From the human T2T-CHM13v2.0 reference genome, Homo sapiens, in the NCBI RefSeq assembly GCF_009914755.1, contig NC_060941.1: a DNA stretch of 64,000 nucleotides; one strand, given 5' to 3'. Made by a program: the position numbers and the translations under genes. Shown here in pieces: positions 58,725 through 64,000 of the stretch (positions within the stretch are counted from its first letter, which is position 1; the number at the start of each line of letters is the position of its first letter). The notes beneath the pieces were generated by a model that saw nothing but the letters and a program-made list of their open reading frames with translations, was not told where the DNA came from and made no database searches.

Positions 58725-60968
<2,244 letters not shown>

Positions 60969-61204
60969 ATGAAATTATTCAGTCAACTGTCCAGCCACTA
61001 CGGGGAGCTAAAAAAGGCAAAATGTTTATAAAGTATAGCATGTTTCATACTATTTTGCAGTCTCTACTATGCAGGAGAGATGATTATTTAAGCATAGATT
61101 GGTTGTTGGCCCAACTATCTGAAATACATTCAGGCACTACCTGTGCCCTATCCATCACAATATTTTTATCGAGCCTCACCAAAGCCATGAGTAATGGGCC
61201 AGAA

Positions 61205-62364
61205 GGCTGCAGAAGTAACTAGTCCAGAATGAATGAACTCTCACTGCAATTTTAGCTCAGCAGACAGTGCCTGCTATCAGAAACATCCAAAAACCACAGC
61301 AATTAGACAAATAAGTTGTGAAAGATGTGGTTTCCAGGTAAGATGTGACAGGCTTCTTACCGCAAATAGTTTTTCTTATAAAAGAAGAAAGACTGGTGGG
61401 AGAGATGGTGGAAAAAATGAAAACAATGTTTCTTCTATGATTCTCTGGCCCATCCTCACAGGACTTCATATGTAGTGAAGGCAGAATATTTGCCTCAAGC
61501 CCAGATGACCAACTTTTACTTTCTACACTGACTCAGGCTTCTTACTGAAAATGGTATATCACCATTTACTCCACTAACATCACTTACAAGATGAGGCCCT
61601 ATGGGGCACTAACATCTATGTATCTTATGTAGAATTCAATTAATTGGGAAGGCCTATTGACAAACAGGAAGACCCCACACACAGACACACACGCACACAC
61701 ACACACACACACACAAAACAAAAAATAACCACCAGTGAACTCTTCTCTAACCTAATGCTTTATTTATTTAGCCAAATGTGCTTTTAAGGGTGACTGGCTT
61801 ACACATCAAAAACGTTTACAATTTTAGAATAAACTATAAAACATCCTTCAGCACTAACAAAGCTAAAACTAGTAAAATAAGTAACAAGTATTGCTAACAT
61901 CATTTTTAAATCACATTCCACACAAGTAGGCCCATGTAGTTTTATGAATAAAACTATTCTTTTTTATTTTAAGAATTAAAAAGTGATGTTAGTGGAATAA
62001 ATGGTGAAACACCATTTTTAGGAAGAAGCCTGAGTCAGTGTAGAAAGTAAAAGTTGGTCATCTGGGCTTGAGGTAAATATTCTGCCTTCACTACATATGA
62101 AGTCCTGTGAGGATGGGCCCAGACAATCATAAAAGACACATTGTTTTCATTTTTTCCACCATCTCTCCCACCAGTCTTTCTCCTTTTGTAAGAAAAACTA
62201 TTTGCGGTAAGAAGCCTGTCACATATCTTACCTGGAAACCACATCTTTCACAATTTATTTGTCTAATTGCTGTGGTTTTTGGATGTTTCTGATAGCAGGC
62301 ACTGCTTGCTGAGCTAAAACTGCGGTGAGAGTTCATTCATTCTGGACTGGTTACTTCTGCAGCC
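61205..62364. repeat. Long inverted repeat: arms 61205-61585 and 61981-62364, 395-bp spacer
   Basis: By manual alignment the left arm equals the reverse complement of the right arm, with 17 substitutions and 2 small indels over ~381 bp. Confidence 0.97.
61676..61715. repeat. Interrupted (CA)n microsatellite in the inverted-repeat spacer
   Basis: Directly visible. Confidence 0.85.
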
Positions 62365-62439
62365 GACATATTTGTAAAGACTTATTCAAAAGGTAATCAT
62401 CCTGACGGAGTGTGAGGCAGCTGTCACCCAGTAGTTGAC

Positions 62440-62640
62440 AGCTCAACCTTGACAGCTGGAATACTTGGGTTCCAACACTGTGAGGCTTTGGGCCCCCTCT
62501 TTAATTTCTCTGTGCGGCATTTTCACATTTGTGGAACACAGATAACACCTACACACCTCATAGGATTGTTAGGAGGATTAAACTTGTTAATACAGCAAAG
62601 TCCCTGGCACCTGGAGAGCACATAATAACTGTTGGTAATT
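62440..62640 (+). mobile_element. MIR
   Basis: ACCTCATAGGATTGTTAGGAGGATTAAA core. Confidence 0.6.
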
Positions 62641-63894
62641 TTCCTACAGGTAAAATATGGCACAAAGAGAAGTATCACATAGCAAAAGAAGTGCTAGTCT
62701 TTTGATCAGTCTTACACAAATTCTCCCATACTTTTAGACAAGAATAAGCCTTCCCCTAACTCCCACTGAAGAATGCATACAATTTCATTCAGAAAAAGTA
62801 TCATCTGACACAGTGGAATGAGTGAAATAAATCCTGCTGAACATGCCCAATGCTTCCCTAGCTCCTGTGGCCAACATACAATTTCAATAGGAAAGGGGAT
62901 TGTTTGTAAAGACAGTTTTATAACATCTGTCACCAAACAACAGTGAAGTTCAAAGTGAAAATTCAAGATTTCACATAGCAGGCAGAGGGACTTTCAAAAA
63001 CATCTGTCCTCTCACTCCTGTTCCCCATCCCTCTTTCCTAATCAAGGTTATAATAACGCAAGCCCTCTGTAAGCTGGCACACAAGCTGACAACATGCTAC
63101 CCTGCTGAACAGTCATCAAGGAGGAAAGAAAGGCCCAGGGGGCTGCTACAACATTTCCATAAACCTCTTATCCTTAGCTAAAAAGGTAAATTTGTTCTAG
63201 AGATGCTTAAAGAAAAAACACTTGACTGGCATAACCTAGACACATGCAATACCTTTTTCCCATTTCTAGTTTTCTCAAGTATTCAGGGAATGACCATCGA
63301 CATTTTTGGAATCAGAAACAAATTGTTTCCAAAAGTGTTAAGCAGTGCTTGTCCAAAGGCCCCCATATAGCTAGTAATTTAGACAGCTGTGTTAGGAGCC
63401 ACAGAAGCTGCATTTTCTAACCAGTATTGCTTGTGAACAATTGAAACTTTCTCCAGTGCAAAGTCCAGACACAGGAAGCAGTGTTCTCCAAAAACATTCA
63501 AACAGTTTCATTATTGTTTAACTACCAAAATAACAGCTCCAATAATCTATCAAGTTTGACATTTCATCCAACTAAGCAATTAAACCAGGATGAAAAGCAT
63601 GCATGGAGAGATTTCCCTGCCTGCTCCAAATCAACACTAATTTTGACATTATAACCACAAAAACTAATAATGCATCCTCGTAGACTATTCACAAAAGGCT
63701 TCTAAAAAGCAAACACAAAAGCGTCTCGAAGAAATTGCACACCCCTAAATTTTATTTTCTGTCTCCCATCTTTAAGCATCTTAACTGTGAGTTAAGTTAC
63801 AGGCCAAGAAGTTAGAAACTCCTTTCCAGTATTTAGTCAAAAAGAGGGGAATATGCCTCCCAATACAAGCACCCAATGCAAATTCTATCAATTT

Positions 63895-64000
63895 ATTCTT
63901 TTTTTTTTTTTTTTTTTTTTTTTGAGACGGAGTCTTGCTCTGTCTCCCAGGCTGGAGGGCAGTGGCATGATCTTGGCTCACTGCAATCTCCACCTCCCAT
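63895..64000 (-). mobile_element. Alu, truncated by the window end
   Basis: Poly(T) followed by GAGACGGAGTCTTGCTCTG. Confidence 0.9.

What the first reader, a model, noticed from the sequence alone, without database searches (positions are those of the whole stretch)
61205..62364. ~380-bp, ~95%-identical inverted duplication of non-Alu sequence: a potential long dsRNA hairpin or flippable segment upstream of the RFFL coding exons
Seen: 61205-61585 is the reverse complement of 61981-62364, with 17 substitutions (13 transitions, 4 transversions) and 2 indels, around a 395-bp spacer. I do not recognise the arms as any common repeat, and I see no transposon-like TSD. Established: such arms are far more complementary than typical inverted Alu pairs; long intramolecular duplexes are substrates for ADAR, Dicer and MDA5/PKR; near-identical inverted repeats mediate recurrent inversions and arm-to-arm gene conversion. 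Inference: if RFFL transcription starting beyond the window passes through, the minus-strand RNA forms a ~380-bp stem with 6 G-U pairs and 7 A-C mismatches (preferred editing sites). The 7:6 split of wobble pairs between strands gives no evidence of strand-specific selection on RNA structure.
Basis: partly seen in the sequence, partly recalled or inferred. Interest (0 to 1): 0.8.

Follow-up and report, generated by a model that had tools for sequence, protein, structure and literature searches.

The report
Single-locus inverted duplication upstream of RFFL
A 381-base stretch of unique human DNA was copied once, in reverse, about 400 bases from its source; it could fold into a long RNA hairpin, but it looks like a neutral scar of a copying error.

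Summary
Arms 61205-61585 and 61981-62364 are reverse complements: 364 matches, 17 substitutions (13 transitions, 4 transversions), 2 indels, 94.8% identity, around a 395-nt asymmetric spacer holding a (CA)20 microsatellite. The edges are sharp and there is no target-site duplication.

In the whole T2T genome each arm, and each arm end searched alone, matches only the two arms. An old L1-like control piece gave 344 candidates. So this is not an interspersed repeat or a multi-copy transposon. It is a one-off local inverted duplication.

Arm divergence (K2P 0.046 ± 0.011) puts the event at roughly 10-35 million years ago under recalled primate rates. Differences are evenly spread, with no conversion tract. 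G-U versus A-C mismatches are symmetric between strands (6:7 and 7:6), and nothing coding or Rfam-like lies in the arms.

Either strand folds into a ~380-bp stem that is about 96% paired. That is at the edge of a published class of 2,018 long, highly paired human dsRNAs (PMC11838218).

Transcription, editing and inversion could not be tested. Inversion looks unlikely, because the longest identical run is 51 nt. Most likely reading: a neutral duplication scar with by-product dsRNA potential.

The parts
61205..61585 (.). Left arm of the inverted duplication (381 nt)
   Evidence: 94.8% identical to the reverse complement of 61981-62364; its only other genomic match is the right arm.
61586..61980 (.). 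Spacer (395 nt): asymmetric, A+T-rich (33% G+C), unique in the genome apart from its microsatellite
   Evidence: no inverted symmetry within the spacer. In one search, all 91 non-self matches fall at query positions 68-150, the CA run; the CA-free part 61722-61980 matches only itself; base composition.
61676..61715 (.). (CA)20 microsatellite inside the spacer
   Evidence: period 2, 20 copies, 89% matches.
61981..62364 (.). Right arm of the inverted duplication (384 nt). It comes first in an RFFL-sense (minus-strand) transcript.
   Evidence: at E<=10 it matches only itself and the left arm.
61205..62364 (-). Predicted long hairpin RNA if transcribed in the RFFL sense: ~380-bp stem, 395-nt loop
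   Evidence: MFE -752.6 kcal/mol for 61195-62374 on the minus strand, with the two arms paired end to end; 370 of 384 stem columns paired (364 Watson-Crick plus 6 G-U), 96.4%; the plus strand folds the same way, -726.0 kcal/mol.

Best explanation
This is a one-off, locus-specific inverted duplication. A 381-bp piece of unique, non-coding sequence in the RFFL upstream/intronic region was copied once in reverse-complement orientation and placed 395 bp from its source. The likely cause is a single replication or repair error: a template switch to the complementary strand and back, or fold-back priming after a break. That step is inferred. The copy was perfect when made and has since decayed neutrally to 94.8% identity. 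With recalled primate substitution rates, this dates the event to roughly 10-35 million years ago, in ape or catarrhine ancestors. It has no function of its own. When the longer RFFL isoform or the RAD51L3-RFFL readthrough is transcribed through it, the intron should fold into a ~380-bp, ~96%-paired dsRNA. That stem would be an expected nuclear ADAR substrate and would be discarded with the intron. This last part is inferred and was not tested.
For: Shown here:
- The structure and all counts hold.
- Each arm has exactly 2 genomic matches, itself and its partner, even at E<=10. This is true for the full arms and for the outer 120 nt and inner 146 nt searched alone.
- The same search on a 226-nt old L1-like piece from the window gave 344 first-look candidates. 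Of the 40 scored, the 39 non-self matches were at 72-85% identity. A family as young as the 5% arm divergence implies would therefore have been seen.
- The spacer and the left flank are unique.
- There is no TSD, and the repeat does not extend into the flanks or the spacer.
- The differences look neutral: 13 transitions to 4 transversions, and 19 events spread evenly. The longest identical run is 51 nt against a simulated mean of 67, with P(sim<=obs)=0.19. G-U to A-C is 6:7 on the minus strand and 7:6 on the plus strand.
- There is no Rfam hit in the arms: 8 matches at E<=1 in 60000-64000, all at 60045-60957 in Alu sequence.
- There is no coding signal. The longest stop-to-stop frames in the arms are 80 and 91 aa, and a 2-nt indel breaks the frame between copies. 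Of the 4 frames scanned against Pfam, 0 reach a cutoff.

From papers, read as passages:
- The architecture (source, spacer, inverted copy) is the '3-2-1-4' outcome of the four-point template-switch model. That type creates an inverted repeat and made up 31% of high-confidence human-chimp events (PMC5453318).
- Template switches make perfect hairpin-forming repeats in a single event (PMC10710096).
- Human fold-back inverted duplications always carry a non-duplicated spacer (PMC3907307).
Against: - No outgroup genome was available. The ancestral state, which arm is the parent, the junction microhomology and the date are therefore all unverified.
- Junctions as read today show no microhomology (and my reading). 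That neither fits nor refutes a template switch after about 5% decay.
- Published short template switches are tens of bases long (the detection threshold was 14 bp in PMC5453318). This event is 381 bp with a 395-bp jump, so it is a much larger instance.
- The genome search is word-based and weak on very old repeats. The MIR-like right flank gave only 4 weak hits. An ancient low-copy family as the ultimate source of the arm sequence is not excluded.
- Neutrality is inferred from only 19 differences, so the test has little power.
- No Dfam or RepeatMasker run was possible.
Confidence: 0.65

Rival explanations
1. The 1.16-kb unit is a single surviving copy of a non-autonomous DNA transposon or foldback-type element with ~380-bp terminal inverted repeats, with the arms kept alike by gene conversion.
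For: The shape fits: long terminal inverted repeats around a short non-coding core, with sharp outer ends. A 27-nt sub-repeat occurs twice in each arm, scoring 17 against shuffles at 9.1 ± 1.4 with a maximum of 14. Sub-terminal repeats occur in some transposon families; that point is recalled. The genome search has low power for very old families.
Against: No other copy of either arm, or of either arm end, exists anywhere in the 3.1-Gb genome at E<=10. There is no target-site duplication. There is no sign of conversion tracts. No transposase-like frame is present. Arms only 5% apart would imply a young family whose other members the search would detect, as the control shows.
Confidence: 0.1
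2. The hairpin is a functional RNA element. It would be a long nuclear dsRNA that recruits ADAR, yields small RNAs, or shapes promoter or splice choice of RFFL, and selection would keep it paired.
For: The stem is exceptionally long and well paired. It sits at the edge of the >300 bp, >96% paired class, which holds 2,018 of 5,134,754 predicted human dsRNAs (PMC11838218). It lies inside the span of the longer RFFL isoform and of the readthrough gene (hub annotation).
Against: G-U and A-C mismatches are symmetric between strands, and 4 transversions and 2 indels also break pairing. That matches plain decay of a once-perfect copy. There is no Rfam family, microRNA families included, in the arms. 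The repeat is not in any exon listed for the window. No paper in the searched library links RFFL with inverted repeats (1 hit, unrelated) or with A-to-I editing (1 hit, unrelated). RFFL is not named in the main text of PMC11838218 or PMC7006430, and their supplements could not be opened.
Confidence: 0.1
3. The arms act as recombination substrates, so that the 395-bp spacer flips between two orientations in the population (a recurrent micro-inversion) and the arms exchange sequence.
For: Inverted repeats of high identity do mediate recurrent human inversions, with breakpoints in stretches of high identity (PMC3961182, passages).
Against: The longest uninterrupted identity between the arms is 51 nt. 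Efficient mammalian homologous recombination is recalled to need roughly 130-230 nt or more; that figure comes from memory, not from a call. One inversion example read places the likely breakpoint in a 782-bp region of 99.9% identity inside 7-kb repeats. The 19 evenly spread differences show no recent conversion. Only one haplotype was available.
Confidence: 0.05
4. The repeat is an assembly or sequencing artefact, such as a palindromic chimeric read.
For: None found.
Against: The arms differ at 19 events and are separated by a 395-nt unique asymmetric spacer. Chimeric-read palindromes are expected to be identical and spacerless; that point is recalled.
Confidence: 0.01

Closest known systems
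Template-switch mutations, four-point model type 3-2-1-4 / 1-4-3-2 (Löytynoja & Goldman 2017, PMC5453318; Mönttinen et al. 2023, PMC10710096)
   Same: A nearby stretch is copied in reverse complement in one event. This creates a perfect inverted repeat with hairpin potential, often in introns, and point mutations follow.
   Different: Published events are tens of bases long: stems of 30-55 nt for the microRNA class, and a 14-bp detection threshold. Here the copied piece is 381 bp and lies 395 bp away. The ancestral state was not seen, so membership is inferred from architecture alone.
Fold-back inverted duplications with a non-duplicated spacer (Hermetz et al. 2014, PMC3907307)
   Same: Source, single-copy spacer and inverted copy in that order. 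The spacer corresponds to a fold-back loop.
   Different: Those events are megabase-scale and terminal, with spacers of 766-70,466 bp, and they pass through dicentric chromosomes. This one is interstitial and 381 bp long. The inverted microhomology at the spacer edge cannot be scored without the ancestral sequence.
Long, highly paired predicted human dsRNAs (dsRNAscan, PMC11838218) and inverted Alu pairs
   Same: An intramolecular stem over 300 bp in a non-exonic part of a gene. By my count it is 96.4-96.6% paired, against the class limit of >96%.
   Different: The arms are unique sequence, whereas over 90% of predicted dsRNAs and over 99% of edited ones are repetitive. Other inverted pairs in this window, which I take to be Alu pairs, are 72-88% complementary.
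MITE-type hairpins such as MADE1 / mir-548 (PMC1784062, search listing only)
   Same: A palindromic unit in non-coding DNA that can fold into a hairpin RNA.
   Different: MITEs are multi-copy and have TSDs. This unit is single-copy and has none.

Membership tests
DNA transposon with terminal inverted repeats (MITE / foldback type) | Terminal inverted repeats bounding the unit | tested here: met
   381/384-nt arms at the two ends of a 1,160-bp unit.
DNA transposon with terminal inverted repeats (MITE / foldback type) | Target-site duplication directly flanking the ends | tested here: not met
   The bases either side of the unit share no direct repeat.
DNA transposon with terminal inverted repeats (MITE / foldback type) | Several dispersed copies in the genome | tested here: not met
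   2 of 2 matches are the arms themselves, for the full arms and for both arm ends at E<=10. The control repeat gave 344 candidates.
DNA transposon with terminal inverted repeats (MITE / foldback type) | Match of the ends to a curated consensus (Dfam / Repbase) | not testable with these tools
   No repeat library was on hand.
Template-switch mutation (four-point model) | A fragment copied in reverse complement from nearby sequence, giving source, spacer and inverted copy | tested here: met
   model as described in PMC5453318.
Template-switch mutation (four-point model) | An ancestral sequence without the copy, seen in an outgroup | not testable with these tools
   No primate genomes were held.
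Template-switch mutation (four-point model) | Short range and short length, tens of bases as in the published sets | tested here: not met
   381-bp copy and 395-bp distance.
Long, highly paired dsRNA class of dsRNAscan (>300 bp, >96% paired) | Stem longer than 300 bp | tested here: met
   381-384 nt arms pair end to end in the MFE fold.
Long, highly paired dsRNA class of dsRNAscan (>300 bp, >96% paired) | More than 96% of nucleotides paired | tested here: inconclusive
   96.4% on the minus strand and 96.6% on the plus strand when G-U pairs are counted, 94.8% with Watson-Crick pairs only. The preprint's own counting rule was not applied.
Long, highly paired dsRNA class of dsRNAscan (>300 bp, >96% paired) | Transcribed, and edited on both arms | not testable with these tools
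   No RNA data were available.
Segmental duplication (recalled definition: at least 1 kb, at least 90% identity) | Length of at least 1 kb | tested here: not met
   The arms are 381/384 nt. Identity of 94.8% would pass.
Inverted repeats that drive recurrent inversions by homologous recombination | A long stretch of uninterrupted identity between arms | tested here: not met
   The longest identical run is 51 nt. The threshold of about 130-230 nt is recalled, not taken from a call.

The most novel reading that the evidence does not exclude
This is an ape-lineage, non-transposon long hairpin born in one template-switch event about 380 bp long, far larger than the published tens-of-bases events. 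It is transcribed within the long RFFL and RAD51L3-RFFL pre-mRNAs and acts there as a heavily edited dsRNA that influences isoform choice or yields small RNAs. It would be a caught-in-the-act example of a large de novo structured-RNA locus.
Probability: 0.06. Interest if true: 0.6.

Novelty: new member of a known kind. Interest (0 to 1): 0.28.

Why it matters
If the reading is right, the locus is an ordinary but clean example of how a single replication or repair error makes a long, near-perfect inverted repeat from unique sequence. Its size lies between the tens-of-bases template switches catalogued in primates and the megabase fold-back duplications seen in patients. It is also one of the relatively few non-repetitive stretches of the human genome able to form a stem over 300 bp at about 96% pairing. 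That makes it a convenient natural test substrate for nuclear ADAR editing of intronic dsRNA. Nothing here suggests it affects RFFL or innate immune sensing.

Tried and rejected
- **Known RNA family:** the Rfam scan of 60000-64000 at E<=1 gave 8 matches, all in Alu sequence at 60045-60957 and none in 61205-62364.
- **Interspersed repeat or transposon:** rejected on copy number (with control 12) and on the absence of a TSD.
- **A larger, decayed palindrome:** rejected. The flanks at 100, 300 and 600 nt and the spacer halves score no better than shuffles.
- **Coding fragment:** 15 stop-to-stop frames of at least 40 aa overlap 61100-62470, and the longest within the arms are 80 and 91 aa. Four were scanned against Pfam. 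The only match is a weak zinc-ribbon hit at E 0.18 and 12.3 bits, against a cutoff of 29.8.
- **Whole unit as an insertion into an older repeat:** searching the flanks was uninformative. The left flank is unique, and the right flank holds a near-full-length MIR-like element that begins about 40 nt beyond the arm (identification by eye).
- **Gene conversion between arms:** the run-length simulation shows no excess of long identical tracts.
- **Junction microhomology:** none is visible today. I judged this uninformative after about 5% decay.
- **Literature:** 'RFFL' with 'inverted repeat' gave 1 unrelated paper, and 'RFFL' with 'A-to-I' gave 1 unrelated paper.

Full report
**1. Observation**

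The gapless repeat finder reports three abutting inverted pieces in 60500-63500:
- 61205-61347 with 62222-62364, 143 nt at 95%
- 61343-61451 with 62116-62224, 109 nt at 94%
- 61447-61585 with 61981-62119, 139 nt at 96%

A gapped local alignment with 50-nt margins joins them into one pair, 61205-61585 against the reverse complement of 61981-62364. It has 364 matches, 17 mismatches (13 transitions, 4 transversions) and 3 gap columns in 2 indels, which is 94.8% identity. The arms are 395 nt apart. That includes the count for the minus-strand RNA: 6 G-U pairs, 7 A-C mismatches, 4 other mismatches and 3 bulged bases.

The ends are sharp. Outer flanks of 100, 300 and 600 nt, and the two halves of the spacer, align to each other's reverse complement no better than shuffled sequence. 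As a local baseline, the window holds 237 other inverted pairs of at least 100 nt within 10 kb. The 25 longest shown are 72-88% complementary, and by their sequence I take them to be Alu pairs. The focal pair is clearly different.

**2. What the pieces are**

I searched each part against the window's own 3.1-Gb assembly.

| Query | Result |
|---|---|
| Left arm | 2 first-look candidates, 2 matches: itself and the right arm |
| Right arm, E<=10 | 2 matches: itself and the left arm |
| Outer 120 nt of the arm | 2 matches, the two arms |
| Inner 146 nt of the arm | 2 matches, the two arms |
| Whole spacer | 92 matches; the 91 non-self ones all at query 68-150, the (CA)n run |
| CA-free spacer part 61722-61980 | itself only |
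| Left flank 60975-61204 | itself only |
| Control: 226-nt piece of the neighbouring old L1-like 3' end, 60215-60440 (identified by eye) | 344 candidates; of the 40 scored, 39 non-self matches at 72-85% identity |
| Right flank | self plus 4 weak short hits at window 62501-62601, a MIR-like element by eye |

The control shows the search does find diverged family members. The MIR result shows it is weak for very old repeats.

The search is therefore strong enough to exclude a family as young as the 5% arm divergence would imply. It is not strong enough to exclude an ancient low-copy source for the sequence that was duplicated.

Other checks on the arms were negative:
- There is no target-site duplication at the ends.
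- No Rfam family matches inside 61205-62364. The 8 matches at E<=1 in 60000-64000 all lie in Alu sequence at 60045-60957.
- The only tandem repeat is (CA)20 at 61676-61715.
- Stop-to-stop frames in the arms reach 80 and 91 aa, and the 2-nt indel breaks the frame between the copies. Of the 4 frames scanned against Pfam, none reaches a family cutoff.

**3. History read from the differences**

The Kimura two-parameter distance between the arms is 0.0463 ± 0.0114. The substitution rates below are recalled, not taken from any call.

| Rate per site per year | Estimated age (95% range) |
|---|---|
| 1.0 × 10^-9 | about 23 My (12-34) |
| 1.2 × 10^-9 | about 19 My (10-29) |
| 0.5 × 10^-9 (slow, pedigree-type) | about 46 My |

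The 19 events (17 substitutions, 2 indels) are spread evenly. The longest identical runs are 51, 50, 45 and 44 nt. In 20,000 random placements the longest run averages 67 nt, and P(sim<=obs) is 0.19. So there is no long identical tract of the kind a recent gene conversion would leave.

The G-U to A-C split is 6:7 on the minus strand and 7:6 on the plus strand. The two strands fold about equally well, at -752.6 and -726.0 kcal/mol. Nothing points to selection on an RNA of either strand. With only 19 differences, though, the power of these tests is low.

**4. Mechanism**

The layout is a source, a single-copy asymmetric spacer and an inverted copy. The four-point template-switch model calls this outcome type 3-2-1-4 (mirror 1-4-3-2). 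It 'creates an inverted repeat' and made up 31% of high-confidence human-chimp events (PMC5453318, passages). Such switches make perfect hairpin-forming repeats in a single step, often in introns (PMC10710096, passages). Patient-scale fold-back inverted duplications likewise always carry a non-duplicated spacer, 766-70,466 bp in 21 sequenced junctions (PMC3907307, passages).

My committed reading is a single switch-and-return or fold-back priming event that copied 381 bp. That is much larger than the catalogued short switches and far smaller than the clinical ones. The step itself is inferred. I saw no ancestral sequence, I cannot say which arm is the parent, and today's junctions show no microhomology. 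After about 5% decay, that absence is uninformative.

**5. What it does**

According to the hub's annotation, the selected RFFL transcript has all 7 exons at or below 51619. The repeat therefore lies about 9.6 kb upstream of that start. It is still inside the gene span (to 77140) used by the other RefSeq transcript, and inside the RAD51L3-RFFL readthrough. If those are transcribed, the minus-strand RNA would form a ~380-bp stem with 96.4% of columns paired when G-U is counted.

The dsRNAscan preprint defines long, highly paired dsRNAs as >300 bp and >96% paired. It finds 2,018 of them among 5,134,754 predictions, with only one in a 3'UTR. It also reports that over 90% of predicted and over 99% of edited dsRNAs are repetitive (PMC11838218, passages). 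Barak et al. report that long near-perfect duplexes are almost absent from mature RNA and are depleted even in pre-mRNA (PMC7006430, passages).

This locus is therefore a borderline, non-repetitive member of a known, rare class. Its location outside annotated exons argues for nuclear ADAR editing and removal with the intron, not cytoplasmic MDA5 or PKR sensing. That is inference. No expression, editing or small-RNA data could be consulted.

**6. Flipping**

Human inversions mediated by inverted repeats have breakpoints in stretches of high identity. One example places the likely breakpoint in a 782-bp region of 99.9% identity inside 7-kb repeats (PMC3961182, passages). Here the longest uninterrupted identity is 51 nt. 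That is well under the roughly 130-230 nt I recall as needed for efficient mammalian homologous recombination. Flipping is possible but unlikely, and one haplotype cannot test it.

**7. Verdict**

The non-transposon call is supported by copy number and by the missing TSD. The dsRNA potential is real but untested, and functional claims are unsupported. The most likely reading is a neutral, ape- or catarrhine-age inverted duplication scar (confidence 0.65).

Rival readings:
- Orphan long-TIR transposon: 0.10
- Selected RNA element: 0.10
- Recombination-active flipping segment: 0.05
- Assembly artefact: 0.01

Novelty: a new member of a known kind. Interest is low to moderate.

Noticed in passing
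window 61349-61375 and 61534-61560 (mirrored at 62192-62218 and 62006-62032): Each arm holds two copies of a 27-nt motif, 81% alike and 185 nt apart. The alignment scores 17 against shuffles at 9.1 ± 1.4 with a maximum of 14. The rest of the two arm halves is not alike, so this is not a decayed tandem duplication. Its origin is unexplained.
   Followed up: partly
window 61336-61344 and about 61448-61462 on the + strand (same signals on the - strand of the right arm, about 62232 and about 62107): The arm carries a consensus-like 5' splice site (CAG|GTAAGA). About 125 nt downstream there is a pyrimidine-rich stretch ending in CACAG|G, which looks like a small intron. In the RFFL sense these signals sit in the right arm. 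They were read by eye and were not scored, and no exon is annotated here.
   Followed up: no
window about 62400-62655: A MIR-like element, identified by eye, begins about 40 nt beyond the right arm and looks nearly full length. It gave only 4 weak genome hits, which shows the own-genome search is insensitive to very old repeats.
   Followed up: partly
window about 59120-60660: An old L1-like 3' end on the + strand, identified by eye, is interrupted by Alu insertions and is followed by a further Alu at about 60670-60970. A piece of it served as the positive control. The Alus give sub-threshold Rfam hits to SRP RNA, mir-1268 and mir-3135.
   Followed up: partly
window 61676-61715: A (CA)20 microsatellite sits in the spacer. 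It is likely polymorphic in length and could serve as a marker for spacer orientation in population data.
   Followed up: no
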